Shown here piece after piece: positions 7,256 to 39,518 of a stretch of DNA of 64,000 bases. Source of the DNA: an uncultured Christensenellaceae bacterium (GTDB taxonomy: Bacteria > Bacillota > Clostridia > Christensenellales > UBA3700). Position numbers and translations under genes: made by a program. Location of the stretch: contig CALWRI010000002.1 of the NCBI GenBank assembly GCA_944383905.1, positions 36,913 through 100,912 on the forward strand. The letters run 5' to 3'. Each line of letters begins with the position of its first letter. Within the stretch, counting starts at the first letter, position 1. The notes below the pieces were generated by a model. It worked only from the letters and a program-made list of their open reading frames with translations. It was not told the DNA's origin and did not search any database.

Positions 7256-7277
7256 TTAATAATAATTGATAATAATT
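7256..7277 (+). repeat. 22-nt AT-rich element TTAATAATAATTGATAATAATT, identical to the reverse complement of 36341-36362
   Basis: Exact identity read by eye. It is embedded in tandem 10-mers (AATAATTGAT x2 at 7261-7280) with AATT phased every ~10 bp. Confidence 0.8.
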
Positions 7278-7601
7278 GATAATTAGATTACAGACGGCAA
7301 ATAATACGATTATTTTTTCGCACAAAGCGGCAAAATACAAACGACTCAACTTCATACAAACAAGCATATTTCGGTGTGAATACGCAGTGCACCACACCCT
7401 GTTTCCGAGCCCCTTGCTTCGCTCTGTTTGCATCTCTCGCAATCGGGATAAGTCGCCCCGAAGGGTGCTCACTTTGACAAAAAACTTTTAATTTCCTCGA
7501 TCGGGTCGGTGAATAACGAAACGGGACCCCTCGTGCGTGACTTGTATGTTAAAGACATTTTGCCCTCGTCTTCGCCTTGCGGACTTTTCAATGCAATCGC
7601 G

Positions 7602-34785: not shown

Positions 34786-35139
34786 TCAACCCGCGCTTTG
34801 AGAAAATTGCTTTGCGCCCGTAAGCAGCACGTCGTTGACGTAAGGATTGACCACTGCGTAAAGTATCAGTTTGCCCGCCCTGCGGCAACCGACTATCCTC
34901 GCGTCCTTGAGCAGTCGGAGCTGGTGCGACACCGTGCTCTGACTCATCGAAAGGATAAAAGACAGATCCGCGACGCAAAGCTCTTTCATCGAAAGCGCAG
35001 AAAGTATGCGCAGTCTCGTATTGTCAGAAAACACGTCGAAAAACCGCGCAAGATGTTCCGTCGCAGCCTTGGGAGGCATACTCCTCATTATGCTCCTTTC
35101 CTGTTGTTCGGTTATGGTGAGACACCCGTCATACATCAT
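34786..35139 (-). CDS. ArsR/SmtB-family metalloregulator-type transcriptional repressor
   Basis: 117 aa: FFDVFSDNTRLRILSALSMKELCVADLSFILSMSQSTVSHQLRLLKDARIV. RBS is AAAGGAG. Confidence 0.88.
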   Translation of the reverse strand: MMYDGCLTITEQQERSIMRSMPPKAATEHLARFFDVFSDNTRLRILSALSMKELCVADLSFILSMSQSTVSHQLRLLKDARIVGCRRAGKLILYAVVNPYVNDVLLTGAKQFSQSAG

Positions 35140-35420
35140 AAAAAACTCCTTTCAGAGCCGATAACGCTCCTTTCTGTAAGTCGCTTCAATCTGCCCGACA
35201 GACGACAACGCACAGCTCCGCAAGCTCGTCTTCTTTACTCTTTCCGACCGTCAACGCGCACGGTCAACGGTATTGCCCCTTCCTATACGGCGAGATTTTC
35301 GGAACCGGCATTGCCGCATCAGGCATAAATATCGGCGTATGAACATATTATATAGCGTTAAAACGGACGTAAAATCGGAATTGTTGCCGAAAGCCGTCGA
35401 ATTTTGTAAGAGGTGATAAA

Positions 35421-35582
35421 ATGAACAATCTTCTGCTCCTGATGCTGCTCTGCTGCGGCAACGACAACAACGGTTGCAATACAAATTGCTGCGATCCACT
35501 CGCGCTCATCATTTGTTGTCTTGCGTTTGCAAAATGCCTCGGCACGAGCGCGTCGTCTCTTTCGGACAGCTCATGCTGTTGA
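35421..35582 (+). CDS. 53-aa cysteine-rich hydrophobic peptide (10 Cys), hypothetical
   Basis: Below the ORF-track size cutoff. Sequence is MNNLLLLMLLCCGNDNNGCNTNCCDPLALIICCLAFAKCLGTSASSLSDSSCC. SD AGAGGTGA lies 4 nt upstream and codon usage is genome-typical. It is divergent from the ArsR gene. Confidence 0.5.
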   Translation: MNNLLLLMLLCCGNDNNGCNTNCCDPLALIICCLAFAKCLGTSASSLSDSSCC

Positions 35583-35953
35583 TGACGGCGCGGGTATAAT
35601 TTATATCCGCGACCGTATTCTCTGTATTGACGCGCCTGCAAAAAAACTCCCGACATAAAAGCCGACACACCGTTCGGACATCTCTGCCCGACAGACGCGC
35701 CGCGCGTAACAGACAGCGGCGCAATTTTTGCCGTTGATTTACTGCGAGCTTCACTTTACTCTTTTTACCATTAATTCGTTTTTTCAAACGTGCAGTCAGT
35801 ATATTGTCAGACAGTGTAAAACGCGAAGATTTTTTCGACAAATCCTTTTCAAGTCGGAAATCTGCAACGGGAAAAGCGCATAAAAATCTTTGAAAAACAT
35901 GATGTCTCGTCACAAAGCCACCGAGAATACTTTTATAATCGTAGTTATGAAAC

Positions 35954-35980
35954 AAAAAAAAACGGGGCGAAACGCCCCGC
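35954..35980 (-). terminator. rho-independent terminator of the 80-aa Cys-rich gene
   Basis: On the minus strand: CGGGGCG-ttt-CGCCCCG followed by T9, starting about 15 nt after the stop. Confidence 0.85.
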
Positions 35981-35994
35981 ATGAAATTTTACCC

Positions 35995-36237
35995 TTATCG
36001 GGAACAGCCGCAACAGTAGCAGTCACAGTCGGAACTTCCGACGTTGTAAACGCCGACGAGCACCGGTATCACGACGCGGACGGAAGAATACCATCCGCAG
36101 GGGTTAACGTAATACGGCAGATCGTCGCTCTGACAACACGAACCGTTGCAACCGGAGCAGCCGCCGCACGAACAGCTTCGGGAAAAGCAAGAACCCGAGC
36201 CGCACCCGCAGCCGCAATTAACGCTTGAGTAACACAT
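35995..36237 (-). CDS. 80-aa cysteine/glycine-rich protein (17 Cys), hypothetical
   Basis: MCYSSVNCGCGCGSGSCFSRSCSCGGCSGCNGSCCQSDDLPYYVNPCGWYSSVRVVIPVLVGVYNVGSSDCDCYCCGCSR. I prefer the ATG at 36237 (AAAGGA lies 8 nt upstream) over the track start at 36327. It has its own terminator. Confidence 0.55.
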   Translation of the reverse strand: MCYSSVNCGCGCGSGSCFSRSCSCGGCSGCNGSCCQSDDLPYYVNPCGWYSSVRVVIPVLVGVYNVGSSDCDCYCCGCSR

Positions 36238-36340
36238 ATTGCACATCCTTTTCCCGCGACAAAAAGCCGCAGGACAATACATAGTATGTCCCGCAGCGAC
36301 GTTTTGTGAAATTGCAACATTCGACAATTTCAGTATTATT

Positions 36341-36362
36341 AATTATTATCAATTATTATTAA
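36341..36362 (-). repeat. second copy of the 22-nt AT-rich element (reverse complement of 7256-7277)
   Basis: The plus strand reads AATTATTATCAATTATTATTAA. It sits within four 10-bp-phased AATT units (36341-36380), between the spoIVA stop and the Cys-rich gene. Confidence 0.8.
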
Positions 36363-36427
36363 TTTTGATTAATTACCGTTTTTCGTTTTTTTGTCACAAC
36401 GCCCGTCGAGAAATATGCACGTTTTCG

Positions 36428-37903
36428 TCAGAGCAATATGCACAGCACACCGCCCTTTCCTTCGTTGACTATCCTGCCGACCGTCTTTCTCAATTTGAGC
36501 CTGGTATCCGCGGGCATCGAAGCGAGCTTTGTCGTCAATCCGTCTTTCGCCATTACGTCGAGAGATTTTCCGAGCATATTCGTCTTCCAGACCGCTTTGC
36601 TGTCTTCGCCGAAACCGTCGAGCCATTCTTTGAGCATCTTTTCGTCCTGCGATTCGCTCATTATCGGACTGACTTCAGTCTCCACGTCCACCTTCATTAT
36701 ATGATAGCTGGGCGCGCTCGCTTTGAGTTTCACGCCGCATCTCGAGCCTTTTTTGACTATTTCGGGCGCGTCGAGATTCATGTCGTCTTCCGTCGGTATC
36801 ACCACACCGTAACCGAACTCATCTGCCTGTTTTACCGCTTCGGACAACTTGTCGTACTGTTTTTTCGCATAGCCGAGAGATTTTATGTACGACACGAGCT
36901 CAAAGTCGTTTTCTATCTTCAGATCGCACTGCTTGCTCAACACCTCGTAAAACAGTCCCTGTCTCGGCGACAATTCGAGGGTTATCTTGCCCGTGCCGAA
37001 ATCCACGTTGACTTCGGCGACTTTCTGTATGTAGTCGTCTTCTTCAAAAACGCCGGCAAGACGGGTAAAATCGCCCATGACTTTTACGTCTCCGCAAGCC
37101 TGTCTCGCCTTTTCGACGACGTCGACGATGATCTCGTTGTCCTTGGGGAGAGCCTGCAACCATTTGGGCATGACGATCCCGACGCCTTCGACGGGAAACT
37201 GAAGAAGGACTGCCTTGAGTATCTCGGAGATCTCGTCTTTGCCCATTTCCGCGACGTTCTGAAGCATAACGGGAACGCCGTATTTTTCAGACAGTTTCGC
37301 TGCAAGTTTTTTGCTGTCGGCGTTCTTTTCGTTTTTGGTATTTAGTACGACGGCAAAAGGCTTTCCGAGCTCCTTCATCTCGTAGACTATGCGTTCCTCC
37401 GCTTTTTCGTAAGCCTTTCTCGGCAATTCCGTAACGGAGCCGTCGCAAGTAACTACTATTCCGATAGTAGAATGGTCCGTCATGACCTTTCTCGTGCCGT
37501 ATTCCGCCGCTTGCTCAAACGGCATTTTTTCGTCGCTCCACGGCGTGTCGACGAGACGGGGTTTCCCGTCCTCGACGTGACCCTCGGCGTTGTCGACGAG
37601 ATAGCCGACGCAATCTATGAGTCTTATCCCTGCTTTCAGATTGTCGCCGAACTCGACGACCTGCGCTTCGTCGGGAACGAATTTTGGCTGTGTGGTCATG
37701 ATCGTCTTGCCGTCCGCGGACTGCGGCAACTCGTCGGTAACGCGTTTTTTGCGGTGCGCGTCCTTGATCGCGGGCAAAACGAGCGTTTGCATAAACCTGG
37801 TGATGAACGTGGATTTACCCGTGCGCACGGGTCCCTCCACTCCGATATAGATATCTCCGTTTGTGCGCATGGAGATATCGCGGTACAAGTCGAACTGTTG
37901 CAT
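36428..37903 (-). CDS. spoIVA: stage IV sporulation protein A
   Basis: MQQFDLYRDISMRTNGDIYIGVEGPVRTGKSTFITRFM (Walker A). It is 491 aa from the ATG at 37903, with RBS GGAGGG. The upstream extension in the track is rejected. Confidence 0.92.
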   Translation of the reverse strand: MQQFDLYRDISMRTNGDIYIGVEGPVRTGKSTFITRFMQTLVLPAIKDAHRKKRVTDELPQSADGKTIMTTQPKFVPDEAQVVEFGDNLKAGIRLIDCVGYLVDNAEGHVEDGKPRLVDTPWSDEKMPFEQAAEYGTRKVMTDHSTIGIVVTCDGSVTELPRKAYEKAEERIVYEMKELGKPFAVVLNTKNEKNADSKKLAAKLSEKYGVPVMLQNVAEMGKDEISEILKAVLLQFPVEGVGIVMPKWLQALPKDNEIIVDVVEKARQACGDVKVMGDFTRLAGVFEEDDYIQKVAEVNVDFGTGKITLELSPRQGLFYEVLSKQCDLKIENDFELVSYIKSLGYAKKQYDKLSEAVKQADEFGYGVVIPTEDDMNLDAPEIVKKGSRCGVKLKASAPSYHIMKVDVETEVSPIMSESQDEKMLKEWLDGFGEDSKAVWKTNMLGKSLDVMAKDGLTTKLASMPADTRLKLRKTVGRIVNEGKGGVLCILL

Positions 37904-37932
37904 AAAATCCCTCCAAAGGTTTGTTCTTTTAT

Positions 37933-37959
37933 ACATTATGACGGCTTGTCTGAAAATAT
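37933..37959 (-). promoter_or_regulatory. sigma-E-type (mother-cell) promoter candidate for spoIVA
   Basis: On the minus strand: tcATAtt, a 16-nt gap, then CATAATGT. The recalled consensus is ATA-N16-18-CATACAnT. It lies ~30 nt upstream of the ATG. Confidence 0.5.
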
Positions 37960-38017
37960 GACCCGATCCGTTCGGACAATAGAACGAGCGCGGGAATAAA
38001 AAACAGGACGAACGCGC

Positions 38018-38051
38018 AATAAAAAATATCCGCCCCCGTCGGAGCGGATAT
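38018..38051 (-). terminator. rho-independent terminator of the hydrogenase-containing operon
   Basis: On the minus strand: ATATCCGC-tccgacggggg-GCGGATAT followed by TTTTTTATT. Confidence 0.75.
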
Positions 38052-38072
38052 AATTGCTGACTTAAAACCCTT

Positions 38073-39518
38073 TTATTGCTGTTCGCTTTCGTTTTTAAGG
38101 CTTTCCTCGTACTTCGCAACGCTCGAAGAAATATCCTTGTGACTTGCCGCATTGCCGAACTTGTCGATCTCGACGACGTTTTTCTGTTCGTGGTGCAATA
38201 TCAGCGCGCCGTTGAGACAGCCGCCGTCGCAAGCCATGCCTTCGAAGAAGTTTTCCGCGGCTCTGCCAAGCTTGAGTTTGAGCAGGTTTATCCTGCATTC
38301 TTCTATGCCGTTCATCGCGATCGGCTTGACGTTGTCAACGCCCATGGACTTTGCCACGTTCATTACGCCCTGCGTGATGCCGCCGGACTTTGCGAATATT
38401 CTGCCGTAATAAGATGCCTCGTCCACGGGGCAATCTTCGAGTTTGAGAAGCTCTATATCGCGCGCATCGAAGAACGCCTGCAACTCTTCAAACGACATGA
38501 CGCAATCGATCGCACCCTTCGTTTTGGGCAGTCTGTATTCGAGTTTTTTGCTGGTGCAAGGTCCTATGAATATGCATTTTGCGGTCGGATCGTTGCGCTT
38601 GATGAGCATGGCGGTCTCAATCATCGGAGAGACAGAGCTTGAAACGTACTTTACGAGCTCCGGAAAATTCTTTTCGATAAACATAACGAAAGACGGACAA
38701 CACGAAGTCGTCAGTATGCCGCGCTCCTTGAGCTCCTTCGCCTCGTGATACAGCGTAATATCCGCGCCGAGCGCCGCTTCGGCAACGTCGTAGAAACCCA
38801 GCTTTTTGATACCGCTGGCTACTTTTGCCATAGGCACGCCGGTAAATTGGCTCGCAAGCGCGGGAGCAACGACCGCGTAAACGTGATATTTCGTGTTGTT
38901 TTCGGACTTCTTGAGAATATCGAGCACGTCCATTATCAGAGATTTGTCGACTATCGCGCCGAACGGACACTGATATACGCAGGCGCCGCACGAAATGCAC
39001 TTGTCGTTGTTTATCTTCGCCTTTTTGTTTTCGTCCATAGAGATAGCGCCGACTTTGCAGCTCCTGACGCACGGACGGCGTTGTTCGATGATAGCGCTGT
39101 ACGGACAAGCCTTTGCGCACCTGCCGCACTCGACGCATTTATCCTTGTCTATCACGGGATGGTTGTCGACGATCGTGATTGCGTTTTTTGGGCAAGCCTG
39201 CTGGCATTTGTGAGAAATACAGCCTCTGCACGCAGGCGTGATATACATGCCTTCGATCGGGCACGCGTCGCAAGCCGCGTCGATGACTTCGACGCTGTTG
39301 GGATTGGATTTGTCGCCGCCGAGCGCCATTTTTATCCTCTCCTGAACGATGGCTCTTTCCTTGTATATGCAGCATCTCATCGTCGGCTTGGGTCCCGGCG
39401 AGATCTGCTTGGGTATATCCATATATATATTGCTCATATCGCCGCTGTCCGCCGCCTTGATGACGGCTTTGAGCACTTCGTATTTGAGCTCCTGAACCTT
39501 TGTATCGAAAATCTTCAT
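38073..39518 (-). CDS. [FeFe]-hydrogenase-type protein (ferredoxin-like 4Fe-4S domains plus an H-cluster domain)
   Basis: 481 aa with two CxxCxxCxxxCP motifs and three H-cluster motifs: TTSCCPSF, IGPCTSKKLE and EGMACDGGCLNG. Confidence 0.85.
   Translation of the reverse strand: MKIFDTKVQELKYEVLKAVIKAADSGDMSNIYMDIPKQISPGPKPTMRCCIYKERAIVQERIKMALGGDKSNPNSVEVIDAACDACPIEGMYITPACRGCISHKCQQACPKNAITIVDNHPVIDKDKCVECGRCAKACPYSAIIEQRRPCVRSCKVGAISMDENKKAKINNDKCISCGACVYQCPFGAIVDKSLIMDVLDILKKSENNTKYHVYAVVAPALASQFTGVPMAKVASGIKKLGFYDVAEAALGADITLYHEAKELKERGILTTSCCPSFVMFIEKNFPELVKYVSSSVSPMIETAMLIKRNDPTAKCIFIGPCTSKKLEYRLPKTKGAIDCVMSFEELQAFFDARDIELLKLEDCPVDEASYYGRIFAKSGGITQGVMNVAKSMGVDNVKPIAMNGIEECRINLLKLKLGRAAENFFEGMACDGGCLNGALILHHEQKNVVEIDKFGNAASHKDISSSVAKYEESLKNESEQQ

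What the first reader, a model, noticed from the sequence alone, without database searches (positions are those of the whole stretch)
34786..36237. ArsR/SmtB repressor divergent from an unannotated 53-aa 10-Cys peptide, with a convergent 80-aa 17-Cys protein
Seen: an ORF below the track cutoff (ATG 35421 to TGA 35582, SD AGAGGTGA) encodes MNNLLLLMLLCCGNDNNGCNTNCCDPLALIICCLAFAKCLGTSASSLSDSSCC, which has four CC pairs. It is divergent from an ArsR/SmtB-family gene (34786-35139) across a 281-bp control region. About 410 bp downstream a convergent gene (35995-36237) encodes a protein with CGCGCG, CSCGGCSGCNGSCC and CDCYCCGC runs plus one hydrophobic segment. That gene has its own promoter-like element and a strong terminator. 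Established: an ArsR/SmtB repressor divergent from a small Cys-rich metal-binding protein is the smtB-smtA metallothionein arrangement of cyanobacteria. Inference, hypothesis A: this is a thiol-rich metal or redox buffering module under ArsR-type control, and the regulator has only an atypical sensing site (Cys6, LCVADL, no alpha-5 His ligands). Inference, hypothesis B: these are Cys-rich spore coat or crust-type proteins, given the adjacent spoIVA and mother-cell-like promoters. The hydrophobic stretches are atypical for metallothioneins. I know of no characterised homolog.
Basis: partly seen in the sequence, partly recalled or inferred. Interest (0 to 1): 0.75.

Follow-up and report, generated by a model that had tools for sequence, protein, structure and literature searches.

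The report
Cysteine-rich sporulation peptides beside an ArsR repressor
Two tiny, very cysteine-rich proteins in an uncultured gut Clostridia genome are real, conserved genes with sporulation-type promoters, and one of them is always paired with an SmtB-like repressor gene, so they look like new spore-envelope components rather than a metallothionein system.

Summary
In detail: all three ORFs, their cysteine counts, the Shine-Dalgarno (SD) sites, the gaps and the terminator are as described. Both small ORFs are real genes. They are kept in frame in relatives, all indels are multiples of 3, and dN/dS is 0.16 (Cys53) and 0.30 (Cys80).

They are two units, not one. The SmtB-like ArsR gene lies divergent from the Cys53 peptide in every lineage where the peptide gene survives, whatever the flanking genes (one MAG keeps only a gene remnant). 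Cys80 is limited to this genus and its sister clade and always sits just 3' of spoIVA.

The Cys53 promoter (GCATAAA-N14-CATATTAT) has the same architecture as the spoIVA sigma-E promoter. A strict sigma-E consensus hits the 64-kb window only at those two places. Cys80 has a sigma-K-like promoter (CAC-N17-CATAnnnTA), a covarying 5' leader hairpin and a strong terminator.

Neither peptide matches Pfam, NCBIfam or PDB. Cys53 is hydrophobic, has no His, and only about 5 of its Cys are conserved, so it is unlike a metallothionein.

Best reading: these are mother-cell-expressed, disulfide-forming spore-envelope proteins, with the ArsR-type repressor gating Cys53. Function, operator and effector are untested. 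This is a new variant of known kinds, of moderate interest.

The parts
34786..35139 (-). ArsR/SmtB-family winged-helix repressor gene, 117 aa. Cys55 and Asp58 align with the SmtB alpha-3N ligands Cys61 and Asp64. The alpha-5 ligands are absent.
   Evidence: Pfam HTH_5 and NCBIfam NF033788 are above cutoff. The best PDB hit is SmtB 1r1t, E = 3.8e-16. The protein is 88-95% identical within the genus, versus 80-86% for SpoIVA. Cys55 is invariant; Cys6 and Cys84 are mostly conserved.
35146..35152 (-). Shine-Dalgarno site of the ArsR gene (AAAGGAG on the minus strand)
   Evidence: Read directly from the sequence. The CTCCTT element is conserved in relatives.
35323..35352 (+). Sigma-E-type (mother-cell) promoter of Cys53: -35 GCATAAA, 14-nt spacer, -10 CATATTATA
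   Evidence: The block is conserved in all genus and sister-clade loci. It has the same architecture as the spoIVA promoter. The pattern KMATAWW-N14-CATANNNT hits the window only here and at spoIVA, with 0.06 expected. All 14 hits in nine genus loci fall at these two places.
35338..35347 (.). Small palindrome TATGnnCATA overlapping the -10 of Cys53. It is a candidate ArsR operator. On the opposite strand the same block reads TATAAT, a possible -10 for the ArsR gene.
   Evidence: TATG is invariant although it lies in the promoter spacer. The palindrome is a perfect ATATGAGCATAT in the sister clade. It is not found in the more distant lineages, so this is only a hypothesis.
35409..35416 (+). Shine-Dalgarno site of Cys53 (AGAGGTGA)
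   Evidence: conserved AAAGAGGTG.
35421..35582 (+). Cys53: 53-aa hydrophobic, Cys-rich peptide gene. It belongs to a new family with core motif N-[SC]-C-D-P-x-x-L-x-x-C-C-x-x-F-x-x-C-x-G.
   Evidence: In-frame conservation and dN/dS 0.16. A profile search finds only a handful of clusters, all named hypothetical. There is no match in Pfam, NCBIfam or PDB. Predicted helices span residues 3-12 and 26-40 at low confidence. GRAVY is +0.79.
35585..35616 (+). 3' hairpin right after the Cys53 stop codon; a likely terminator
   Evidence: Fold energy -23.4 kcal/mol, z = -3.2.
35617..35951 (.). Species-specific spacer (the full spacer is 35583-35994). The 157-aa ORF annotated here in public assemblies (35509-35982, minus strand) is spurious.
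   Evidence: Outside the species, only the terminator part of the spacer aligns with relatives. The 157-aa ORF has no tblastn conservation. It is nonetheless called as a gene in the same-species contigs.
35952..35980 (-). Intrinsic terminator of Cys80: an 8-bp stem of which 7 pairs are G-C, followed by a T-run
   Evidence: It is the only part of the spacer conserved in relatives.
35995..36237 (-). Cys80: 80-aa protein rich in Cys, Gly, Ser and Asn (21% Cys). It has the conserved motif LPYYVNPCGWY, one hydrophobic segment and a Cys-rich C-terminus.
   Evidence: In-frame conservation and dN/dS 0.30. It lies just 3' of spoIVA in all 10 genus-level genomes, counting the window, and a 45-aa form is present in part of the sister clade. 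No family or PDB match.
36246..36252 (-). Shine-Dalgarno site of Cys80 (AAAAGGA)
   Evidence: Near-invariant block GAAAAGGAyGTGCAATATG.
36252..36274 (-). 5' leader stem-loop of the Cys80 mRNA; a likely 5' stabiliser
   Evidence: A hairpin sits at the same place in 10 of 10 orthologues, with different and mutually complementary stem sequences. z-scores run from -2.9 to -5.7.
36278..36308 (-). Sigma-K-type promoter of Cys80: -35 CAC, 17-nt spacer, -10 CATACTATGTA
   Evidence: CAC is invariant and the CATAnnnT(A/G)TA -10 is conserved across the genus. The -35 'AC' versus 'ATA' distinction between sigma-K and sigma-E is described in PMC3789822.
36333..36369 (-). Three 10-bp phased direct repeats (ATTRATAATA) upstream of the Cys80 promoter. 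The binding factor is unknown.
   Evidence: Conserved across the genus. The motif gives 7 hits in the window against 0.22 expected, with the other strong copy at 7259-7285. The tool also reports it as a 12-2-12 inverted repeat (I4).
36428..37903 (-). spoIVA (491 aa), the gene immediately upstream of Cys80
   Evidence: Pfam families SpoIVA_ATPase, SpoIVA_middle and SpoIVA_C on the identical gene in public contigs. Orthologues found.
37933..37961 (-). spoIVA promoter TCATATT-N14-CATAATGT. It serves as the internal sigma-E reference.
   Evidence: spoIVA is sigma-E-dependent in C. difficile (PMC3789822).

Best explanation
The region holds two separate units, both belonging to the sporulation programme of a spore-forming member of the Christensenellales ('Ca. 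Ornithoclostridium'-like).

**Unit 1: ArsR plus Cys53.** This is a conserved two-gene module. An SmtB-like ArsR-family repressor is transcribed divergently from a 53-aa hydrophobic, cysteine-rich peptide. The peptide gene is read from a sigma-E-type mother-cell promoter built like the spoIVA promoter. I infer four things:
- The ArsR dimer binds the shared control region, overlapping the -10 of the peptide promoter and its own -10 on the other strand.
- It keeps the peptide gene shut, or tunes it, until a signal sensed through its conserved alpha-3 Cys (with the N-terminal Cys in most lineages) releases it. That signal could be thiol oxidation, persulfide or a thiophilic metal.
- The peptide is then made in the mother cell at the time SpoIVA builds the coat basement layer.
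- With its two short hydrophobic helices, the peptide associates with the outer forespore membrane or the basement layer. It contributes thiols for disulfide cross-linking.

**Unit 2: Cys80.** This 80-aa, 21%-Cys protein is encoded directly downstream of spoIVA. It has a sigma-K-type promoter, a 5' stabilising hairpin and a strong terminator. That anatomy fits an abundant late mother-cell product. I infer that it is a lineage-restricted structural or cross-linking protein of the outer spore layers. It would work like CdeM and CdeC of C. difficile or CotY, CotZ and ExsY of Bacillus. It would stay reduced in the anaerobic mother cell and become disulfide-linked on exposure to oxygen.

**Shown:** both genes are real and under purifying selection, the synteny rules hold, and the promoters match the consensus and are conserved.

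**Inferred:** which sigma factor is used, that ArsR binds and what its effector is, and that the products are located in the spore.
For: **Coding status**
- Both ORFs are conserved in frame. All indels are multiples of 3. dN/dS is 0.16 and 0.30.

**Module structure**
- The ArsR gene lies divergent from Cys53 in all loci of the peptide-bearing lineages. This holds with spoIVA flanks, with DnaJ-like/DUF5685/tRNA-synthetase flanks, with PEPCK/DUF6273 flanks and on a 1.2-kb contig.
- Cys80 is found only next to the spoIVA 3' end, in the genus and part of the sister clade.

**Cys53 promoter**
- GCATAAA-N14-CATATTATA is conserved and matches the genus spoIVA promoters, TCATATT-N14-CATAnnTT.
- The textbook sigma-E pattern occurs twice in the 64-kb window, at spoIVA and at Cys53, with 0.06 expected.
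- All 14 hits in nine related loci are at these two genes.
- Distant lineages keep a single CATAnnnT(A/G) box 42-48 nt before the ATG. In two of them it reads GCATAATGTAtAAAA, nearly identical to the spoIVA -10 in the window.

**Cys80 promoter and transcript**
- CAC-N17-CATAnnnTrTA is conserved.
- C. difficile work shows that sigma-E and sigma-K share the -10 and differ by ATA versus AC at -35, and that spoIVA is sigma-E-dependent (PMC3789822).
- The leader hairpin shows compensatory changes in 10 of 10 orthologues. The terminator is strong.

**Composition**
- Cys80 has N/G/S/C low-complexity runs, an NPC-containing motif and a C-terminal Cys cluster, and it is taxonomically restricted. CdeM and CdeC are described in similar terms (PMC6101409).

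**Regulator**
- It belongs to the ArsR/SmtB family, and SmtB is its closest solved relative.
- There is a precedent for an ArsR-family regulator with a developmental rather than metal-related role in a spore former: CdsR (PMC11009283).
Against: - There are no expression, proteome or binding data. Sigma-factor assignment rests on consensus matching and on analogy with spoIVA.
- The -10 boxes are AT-rich. In some lineages they could also be read as extended -10 sigma-A promoters (TGTATAAT in L040).
- In the sister clade the strict sigma-E pattern fails for both spoIVA and Cys53.
- No inverted repeat shared by all lineages was found, so the ArsR operator is unidentified.
- The N-terminal and wing Cys of the regulator are missing in some lineages, so the sensing chemistry is unclear.
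- Cys53 has been lost in one MAG that keeps ArsR and Cys80. The peptide is therefore dispensable there, and ArsR must have another target or role.
- The AlphaFold model of Cys53 has low confidence (pLDDT 58).
- There is no sequence homology to any known coat or exosporium protein.
Confidence: 0.5

Rival explanations
1. Metal or thiol buffering module, the first reader's hypothesis A. ArsR is a thiophilic-metal or metalloid sensor. Cys53 is a metallothionein-like or ArsD-like thiol-rich binder, derepressed when metal binds the alpha-3N-type site. The arrangement is a functional analogue of smtB-smtA. Cys80 would be a second sink.
For: - SmtB is the best PDB hit of the regulator. Cys55 and Asp58 align with the SmtB alpha-3N ligands, and an N-terminal Cys is present in most lineages.
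- The divergent regulator-peptide arrangement is found in every lineage that keeps the peptide.
- CC pairs and about 5 conserved Cys in the peptide.
Against: - Cys53 is hydrophobic (GRAVY +0.6 to +0.8, two Leu/Ile-rich helices), has no His and almost no charge. That is unlike SmtA/BmtA-type metallothioneins (the SmtA sequence was recalled from memory).
- There is no Pfam metallothionein match.
- Half of the window's 10 Cys are not conserved in the family.
- The promoter is of the mother-cell type like the one at spoIVA, and the scan finds no sigma-70-like promoter on the + strand in 35140-35420.
- The alpha-5 regulatory site is absent, and the N-terminal Cys is missing in two lineages.
- No metal exporter is linked. 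Cys80 has no link to ArsR outside this genus and its sister clade.
Confidence: 0.17
2. Cys53 is a membrane-active small peptide, either a toxic or lytic effector or a regulatory partner. Its synthesis must be kept off by a dedicated repressor. This would resemble ArsR-family CdsR repressing the holin-like lrgAB genes, or SdpR with its membrane partner SdpI. The peptide might itself sequester or modify the ArsR protein. Cys80 would still be a coat protein.
For: - The peptide has two short, very hydrophobic helices and almost no charge.
- The pairing with a repressor is tight and holds regardless of genomic context.
- NCBIfam gives a sub-threshold SdpR hit for the regulator, 47.7 bits against a cutoff of 100.
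- CdsR is a precedent.
- Loss of the peptide with retention of ArsR in one MAG fits a dispensable effector.
Against: - The hydrophobic stretches (9-11 residues) are too short for ordinary transmembrane helices.
- Conserved Cys positions and dN/dS of 0.16 suggest a specific fold or chemistry rather than simple membrane disruption.
- No immunity or partner membrane-protein gene is linked.
- The SdpR score is far below cutoff.
Confidence: 0.13
3. The two ORFs are precursors of ribosomally made, post-translationally modified peptides, such as thiazole/oxazole-modified, sactipeptide or ranthipeptide-like products.
For: Small size and Cys/Ser/Gly/Asn-rich stretches that recall SagA or microcin B17-type cores. 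This is a resemblance recalled from memory only.
Against: - No cyclodehydratase, radical-SAM maturase, protease or exporter sits next to the genes in any lineage. The only radical-SAM gene nearby is the DUF512 gene beside the GTPase gene about 7 kb away.
- There is no NCBIfam precursor match.
- The conserved residues are in the hydrophobic helix and the PYYVNPCGWY motif, not in a leader/core layout.
Confidence: 0.03
4. The small ORFs are chance open frames in intergenic DNA.
For: Cys53 is not called by gene finders in the same-species assemblies, and Cys80 is called in only one of ten. The composition is unusual.
Against: The frame is kept across genomes whose SpoIVA is only 57-86% identical. 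Indels are multiples of 3, dN/dS is 0.16 and 0.30, and SD sites and promoters are conserved.
Confidence: 0.01

Closest known systems
smtB-smtA of Synechococcus (ArsR/SmtB repressor divergent from a small Cys-rich metallothionein)
   Same: - The regulator's closest solved relative is SmtB (E = 3.8e-16).
- The ELCVxDL alpha-3 motif with Cys and Asp is retained.
- The repressor gene lies divergent from a gene for a peptide of roughly 55 aa that is rich in Cys, across a shared control region.
   Different: - The peptide is not homologous to SmtA/BmtA. It is hydrophobic, lacks His, and only about 5 Cys are conserved.
- The alpha-5 regulatory Zn site of SmtB is absent.
- The peptide promoter looks like a sporulation sigma-E promoter.
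- No 12-2-12 operator was identified.
CdeM and CdeC, the cysteine-rich exosporium morphogenetic proteins of Clostridioides difficile (PMC6101409)
   Same: - Cys-rich with N/G/C low-complexity repeats, NPC-type motifs and C-terminal Cys clusters.
- No conserved domains and a very narrow taxonomic range.
- Inferred here to be made in the mother cell, with a proposed disulfide cross-linking role.
   Different: - No sequence homology.
- Cys80 is half the size of CdeM or less (80 versus 161 aa) and more than twice as Cys-rich (21% versus 8.7%).
- It has a hydrophobic segment.
- Spore localisation is untested.
CotY, CotZ and ExsY, the cysteine-rich crust and exosporium proteins of Bacillus, and CsxA of Clostridium sporogenes (PMC4950064, PMC8546674, PMC7333573)
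   Same: [quoted passage not shown] From my own knowledge, they are late mother-cell products that self-assemble and are disulfide-linked.
   Different: No Pfam match to the CotZ/CotY family. Cys53 and Cys80 are far smaller and of low complexity.
CdsR of Bacillus thuringiensis, an ArsR-family repressor of the holin-like lrgAB genes that is needed for sporulation (PMC11009283)
   Same: It is an ArsR-family regulator in a spore former with a developmental rather than metal-resistance role. It represses genes for small membrane proteins and is negatively autoregulated.
   Different: The target is different (LrgAB, not a Cys-rich peptide). Orthology was not tested.
SpoVM of Bacillus subtilis, a 26-aa peptide that anchors SpoIVA to the forespore membrane (from my own knowledge)
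   Same: It is a very small mother-cell peptide, made under sigma-E together with SpoIVA, that acts at the forespore surface.
   Different: SpoVM is an amphipathic, Cys-free helix. There is no sequence similarity, and no ArsR regulator is involved.

Membership tests
ArsR/SmtB family of metalloregulatory repressors (the regulator) | Winged helix-turn-helix of the HTH_5 type, scoring above curated cutoffs | tested here: met
   Pfam PF01022 at 61.1 bits (cutoff 22) and NCBIfam NF033788 at 81.7 bits (cutoff 55). PDB hits include SmtB, CzrA, CadC and NmtR.
ArsR/SmtB family of metalloregulatory repressors (the regulator) | A recognised metal-sensing site: alpha-3/alpha-3N thiolates, or alpha-5 His/Asp/Glu | tested here: inconclusive
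   Cys55 and Asp58 align with Cys61 and Asp64 of SmtB, and an N-terminal Cys6 is present. There is only one Cys per element, and Cys6 is missing in 2 of 7 lineages. The alpha-5 ligands are replaced by Asn and Tyr.
ArsR/SmtB family of metalloregulatory repressors (the regulator) | An imperfect 12-2-12-type inverted-repeat operator in the promoter it controls | tested here: inconclusive
   Only a short palindrome, TATGnnCATA, overlaps the -10, and only in the genus and its sister clade. No inverted repeat is shared across lineages.
ArsR/SmtB family of metalloregulatory repressors (the regulator) | Effector-dependent release from DNA | not testable with these tools
   Needs EMSA or in vivo reporters.
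Bacterial metallothioneins (SmtA/BmtA type) | Sequence membership (the Pfam metallothionein families) | tested here: not met
   No Pfam or NCBIfam hit at E <= 1 for Cys53 or Cys80, and none for any of the 12 and 10 aligned members at E <= 0.1.
Bacterial metallothioneins (SmtA/BmtA type) | A hydrophilic Cys/His-rich chain whose Cys ligands are conserved | tested here: not met
   GRAVY +0.6 to +0.8, no His, two hydrophobic helices, and only about 5 Cys conserved in the family.
Bacterial metallothioneins (SmtA/BmtA type) | Gene divergent from an SmtB-like repressor gene | tested here: met
   True in every locus of every lineage that keeps the peptide gene.
Bacterial metallothioneins (SmtA/BmtA type) | Stoichiometric metal-thiolate cluster binding | not testable with these tools
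   Needs the purified peptide and metal analysis.
Cysteine-rich spore coat, crust or exosporium proteins (CotY/CotZ/ExsY, CdeC/CdeM, CsxA) | Sequence homology to a known member | tested here: not met
   No Pfam, NCBIfam or PDB match. Database relatives are all named hypothetical.
Cysteine-rich spore coat, crust or exosporium proteins (CotY/CotZ/ExsY, CdeC/CdeM, CsxA) | Transcription from a mother-cell (sigma-E or sigma-K) promoter | tested here: met
   Met at the level of conserved consensus matches only. Cys53 is sigma-E-like and identical in architecture to the spoIVA promoter. Cys80 is sigma-K-like. Expression itself was not tested.
Cysteine-rich spore coat, crust or exosporium proteins (CotY/CotZ/ExsY, CdeC/CdeM, CsxA) | High Cys content, with low-complexity or lineage-restricted sequence | tested here: met
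   19% and 21% Cys. The family is restricted to Christensenellales-like MAGs: 7 hits among 1.84 billion representative proteins.
Cysteine-rich spore coat, crust or exosporium proteins (CotY/CotZ/ExsY, CdeC/CdeM, CsxA) | Physical presence in the outer layers of mature spores | not testable with these tools
   Needs spore proteomics or localisation.
RiPP precursor peptides (TOMM/SagA-like, SCIFF/ranthipeptide, sactipeptide) | Adjacent maturase, protease or exporter genes | tested here: not met
   None in any of the gene neighbourhoods.
RiPP precursor peptides (TOMM/SagA-like, SCIFF/ranthipeptide, sactipeptide) | Match to a curated precursor model | tested here: not met
   No NCBIfam hit.

The most novel reading that the evidence does not exclude
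An ArsR/SmtB-type sensor acts inside the sporulating mother cell as a checkpoint. It would couple thiol-redox or thiophilic-metal status to synthesis of a hydrophobin-like, Cys-rich micro-protein that primes the forespore surface alongside SpoIVA. Alternatively, the peptide itself could be the ligand or anti-repressor of the ArsR protein. Either way, this would be a new regulatory layer of endospore envelope assembly, specific to gut Christensenellales. It would also be a new family of bacterial spore-surface micro-proteins.
Probability: 0.15. Interest if true: 0.75.

Novelty: new variant of a known kind. Interest (0 to 1): 0.5.

Why it matters
Christensenellales are prominent, mostly uncultured gut bacteria whose sporulation biology is almost unknown. 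This locus adds three things.

- **Two uncharacterised micro-protein families.** Automatic gene callers miss or mis-annotate them; a spurious 157-aa ORF is annotated in place of Cys53. Their regulatory anatomy places them in the mother-cell sporulation programme.
- **An unusual pairing.** An SmtB-like ArsR-family repressor is paired in every peptide-bearing lineage with a gene that carries a sigma-E-type promoter. If confirmed, this would show an ArsR-family sensor feeding an environmental or redox signal into spore-envelope assembly. It would also extend the idea that unrelated, lineage-specific Cys-rich proteins build spore surfaces.
- **A caution for annotation.** 'ArsR plus Cys-rich peptide' does not by itself mean metallothionein.

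Tried and rejected
- **Single-sequence search with Cys80.** It found nothing. The profile search found only P0016 and P0017, probably because gene callers skip the ORF.
- **JGI metagenome scan with the Cys80 profile.** No relatives. The scan with the Cys53 profile returned six more loci, all with the same arrangement.
- **Rfam.** The locus at a permissive threshold gave only a sub-threshold hit on the terminator. The whole window at gathering threshold gave nothing.
- **Search for an ArsR operator.** I looked for perfect 6-nt inverted repeats with 0-12 nt spacers in ten intergenic regions. None is shared across lineages. The resemblance of TGAACA to SmtB/CzrA boxes was dropped because those bases vary within the genus.
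- **Cys53 5' UTR structure.** Not significant in the window, z = +0.5. Hairpins seen by eye in relatives are not in register.
- **AlphaFold2 of Cys53 with 12 sequences.** pLDDT was 58, too poor for a fold search.
- **Sigma-K pattern count.** The pattern was derived from the Cys80 sequence itself, so I give it no weight.
- **Lipoprotein or signal-peptide reading of the Cys53 N-terminus.** Rejected: there is no positive n-region, the first Cys is not conserved, and no lipobox is present.
- **Leader-peptide or attenuator reading.** Rejected because no gene follows the peptide gene on the same strand in any lineage.
- **The 157-aa ORF at 35509-35982 (-).** Rejected as a gene.

Full report
**1. The observation**

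- An ArsR-type gene lies at 34786-35139 on the minus strand. It is followed by a 281-bp gap.
- A 53-codon ORF runs from 35421 to 35582 on the plus strand. It has the SD site AGAGGTGA, 10 Cys and four CC pairs.
- A 412-bp gap follows, then a convergent 80-codon ORF at 35995-36237 on the minus strand. It has 17 Cys, and a strong terminator lies at 35962-35980.
- spoIVA (36428-37903, minus strand) lies directly upstream of the 80-codon ORF on the same strand.
- The regulator matches Pfam HTH_5 and NCBIfam NF033788 above their cutoffs.
- Neither small ORF matches any Pfam or NCBIfam model.

**2. Are the small ORFs genes?**

I used SpoIVA as an anchor and fetched 19 loci from species-representative genomes. 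The organism is a Christensenellaceae / 'Candidatus Ornithoclostridium'-like MAG lineage.

- In nine genomes whose SpoIVA is 80-86% identical, both ORFs are present, in frame and at the same positions.
- In a sister clade (SpoIVA 57-61% identical), Cys53 is intact. In part of that clade a shorter 45-aa Cys80 relative survives.
- Alignments show conserved cores. For Cys53 the core is N-x-C-D-P-x-x-L-I-x-C-C-L-x-F-x-x-C-L-G. For Cys80 it is M-C-[YFL]...G-S-C-F-S...L-P-Y-Y-V-N-P-C-G-W-Y, followed by a hydrophobic stretch and a Cys-rich tail.
- All length differences are multiples of three. Third-position changes dominate.
- Median pairwise dN/dS is 0.16 for Cys53 and 0.30 for Cys80.
- The upstream ATG at 36246 is not conserved, so ATG 36237 is the Cys80 start.

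Both are therefore real protein-coding genes. Public gene callers instead annotate a 157-aa ORF on the opposite strand (35509-35982). It has no conservation and lies in a species-specific spacer.

**3. One module or two?**

A profile of Cys53 found only a handful of database clusters, all called 'hypothetical protein'. An exhaustive HMM search of 1.84 billion representative proteins gave 7 hits. One is a spurious repeat protein and one is a more distant 92-aa member.

In every contig carrying any of these peptides, the peptide gene is divergent from an HTH_5 ArsR gene. The other neighbours vary:

- DnaJ-like, DUF5685 and a tRNA synthetase.
- PEPCK on one side and a giant DUF6273 protein on the other.
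- A 1.2-kb contig holding just the pair.
- The spoIVA arrangement.

ArsR-Cys53 is thus a self-contained two-gene module. Cys80 occurs only directly 3' of spoIVA, in the genus and part of the sister clade. It is absent from the more distant lineages.

One MAG (L017) has lost Cys53. It keeps a decayed promoter and an 11-codon remnant, and it retains ArsR and Cys80.

The ArsR protein is 88-95% identical within the genus. That is more conserved than SpoIVA at 80-86%.

**4. Regulatory anatomy of Cys53**

The 281-bp intergenic region varies in length (106-557 bp) and in sequence among relatives, except for one block about 70-100 nt before the Cys53 ATG.

- The block reads GCATAAATAT-n-CGTATGnnCATATTATATAgCG.
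- It can be read as -35 GCATAAA, a 14-nt spacer and -10 CATATTAT. That is the classical sigma-E layout as I recall it from the B. subtilis literature.
- It has the same architecture as the spoIVA promoter of this genome, TCATATT-N14-CATAATGT, which is conserved across the genus.
- The pattern KMATAWW-N14-CATANNNT occurs twice on both strands of the 64-kb window, at spoIVA and at Cys53. The expected number is 0.06.
- In nine related loci, all 14 hits are again at these two genes.
- Distant lineages each keep a single CATAnnnT(A/G) box 42-48 nt before the peptide ATG. In two of them it reads GCATAATGTAtAAAA, almost identical to the spoIVA -10 in the window.
- In C. difficile, sigma-E and sigma-K promoters share the -10 and differ by ATA versus AC at -35, and spoIVA is sigma-E-dependent (PMC3789822).

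On the opposite strand the same block reads TATAAT. This could be the -10 of the ArsR gene. In the shortest intergenic regions there is no room for an ArsR promoter elsewhere.

The invariant TATG in the spacer forms a small palindrome with the CATA of the -10: TATGnnCATA, a perfect ATATGAGCATAT in the sister clade. It is a candidate operator. It is not found in more distant lineages, and no shared inverted repeat emerged.

**5. Regulatory anatomy of Cys80**

The spoIVA-Cys80 spacer varies in length, but several elements are conserved:

- Three 10-bp phased repeats, ATTRATAATA, at 36333-36369. The motif is also present at 7259-7285.
- An invariant CAC, then a 17-nt spacer, then CATAnnnT(A/G)TA. 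This is a sigma-K-type layout.
- A stem-loop.
- A near-invariant GAAAAGGAyGTGCAATATG that carries the SD site and the start codon.

The stem-loop is present in 10 of 10 orthologues, with different but complementary stems and z-scores from -2.9 to -5.7. That pattern indicates an RNA structure, most simply a 5' stabiliser. Together with the strong terminator, this is the anatomy of an abundantly expressed late gene.

**6. The proteins**

*The regulator.*
- Its best solved relative is SmtB (E = 3.8e-16), followed by Lmo1102, CzrA, NmtR and CadC.
- ELCVADL aligns with ELCVGDL of SmtB, so Cys55 and Asp58 correspond to the alpha-3N ligands Cys61 and Asp64.
- The alpha-5 ligands are replaced by Asn and Tyr.
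- Across lineages only Cys55 is invariant. The N-terminal Y-x-G-C Cys and the wing Cys84 are each missing in some lineages.
- The sensing chemistry is therefore open. It could be a reduced alpha-3N-type thiolate site or a one-Cys redox switch.

*Cys53.*
- It is hydrophobic (GRAVY +0.79) and has no His and almost no charge.
- It has two short Leu/Ile-rich helices, predicted at residues 3-12 and 26-40 with low confidence (pLDDT 58).
- Only about five Cys are conserved in the wider family.
- This is not how SmtA-type metallothioneins look.

*Cys80.*
- It is 21% Cys, with G/S/N/C low-complexity runs, an NPC-containing motif and a C-terminal Cys cluster.
- These features recall descriptions of CdeM and CdeC of C. 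difficile. Those proteins have N/G/C repeats, NPC repeats and CNCC-type C-termini, lack domains and have a very narrow taxonomic range (PMC6101409).
- There is no sequence homology to them.
- No PDB relative exists for either peptide family.

**7. Interpretation**

The best-supported reading is that both small proteins belong to the mother-cell sporulation programme.

- Cys53 would be made early, with SpoIVA, from a sigma-E-type promoter that an SmtB-like repressor additionally gates.
- Cys80 would be made late, from a sigma-K-type promoter, as an abundant, lineage-specific, disulfide-forming component of the outer spore layers.

What is shown: the genes are real, the synteny rules hold, and the promoter-like elements are conserved and specific. 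What is inferred: which sigma factor is used, that ArsR binds and what its effector is, and that the products are in the spore.

The main rival is a metallothionein-like metal or thiol buffer under ArsR control.
- It keeps its support from the regulator's similarity to SmtB and from the gene arrangement.
- It is weakened by the peptide's hydrophobic, His-free and poorly Cys-conserved sequence, and by the sporulation-type promoter.
- It does not cover Cys80.

A second rival is that Cys53 is a membrane-active effector, or a partner of the repressor, on the model of CdsR-LrgAB or SdpR-SdpI. It cannot be excluded.

RiPP-precursor and chance-ORF readings are rejected. No maturase genes are present in any neighbourhood, and the coding signal is strong.

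**8. Novelty and verdict**

The two peptide families are undescribed. They are limited to Christensenellales-like gut Clostridia and are often missed by annotation.

The kinds of thing involved are known: an ArsR/SmtB repressor divergent from a small Cys-rich gene, and lineage-specific Cys-rich spore-surface proteins. What is new is the combination of an ArsR-family repressor paired, in every lineage that keeps the peptide, with a gene carrying a sigma-E-type promoter. I file it as a new variant of a known kind, with moderate interest (0.5). Confidence in the sporulation-envelope explanation is 0.5.

Noticed in passing
window 35509-35982 (-): A 157-aa, Arg-rich ORF is annotated as a gene in the public same-species assemblies. 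It has no conservation in relatives and lies in a species-specific 412-bp spacer. It is almost certainly spurious, and it masks the real Cys53 gene on the other strand.
   Followed up: yes
window 36333-36369 (-) and 7259-7285 (+): Three 10-bp phased direct repeats (ATTRATAATA) lie upstream of the Cys80 promoter and are conserved across the genus. A near-identical pair of repeats sits in an 850-bp ORF-poor gap at about 7.1-7.9 kb. The motif gives 7 hits in the window against 0.22 expected. The factor that binds it is unknown.
   Followed up: partly
L017:7950-8515: One MAG of the genus has lost the Cys53 gene. It keeps an 11-codon remnant and a decayed -10 box (CATATGATA), while retaining the ArsR gene (88% identical) and Cys80. 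The ArsR protein therefore probably has another target or role.
   Followed up: partly
window 34786-35139 vs 36428-37903: Within the genus the ArsR protein is more conserved (88-95% identity) than the essential coat morphogenetic ATPase SpoIVA (80-86%).
   Followed up: partly
L038:4866-4940 and L030:5896-5955: ArsR start codons are mis-called in the distant lineages. In L038 the true N-terminus (MRYDDCLYI...) lies upstream of the called TTG. A TATAAT box ends 6 nt before the ATG, which suggests a leaderless ArsR mRNA there.
   Followed up: partly
window 35650-35665 (-): A second terminator-like hairpin on the minus strand (TCGGCTTTTATGTCGG followed by a T-run) lies inside the species-specific spacer. 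No conserved ORF or RNA family is associated with it.
   Followed up: no
window 36428-38152 (-): The mechanical ORF containing spoIVA extends 83 codons upstream of the real start (ATG 37903, MQQFDLYR), running through its own promoter. The extension is not coding.
   Followed up: partly
window 1-64000: No Rfam family reaches gathering score anywhere in the 64-kb window.
   Followed up: yes
L030-L036, L038, L039 (genes convergent with the peptide gene): In the distant lineages the peptide gene is followed by a conserved trio: an unknown 183-251-aa protein, a weak DnaJ-like protein of 208-219 aa, and a DUF5685 protein. A tRNA synthetase gene comes next. Their relation to the module was not examined.
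   Followed up: no
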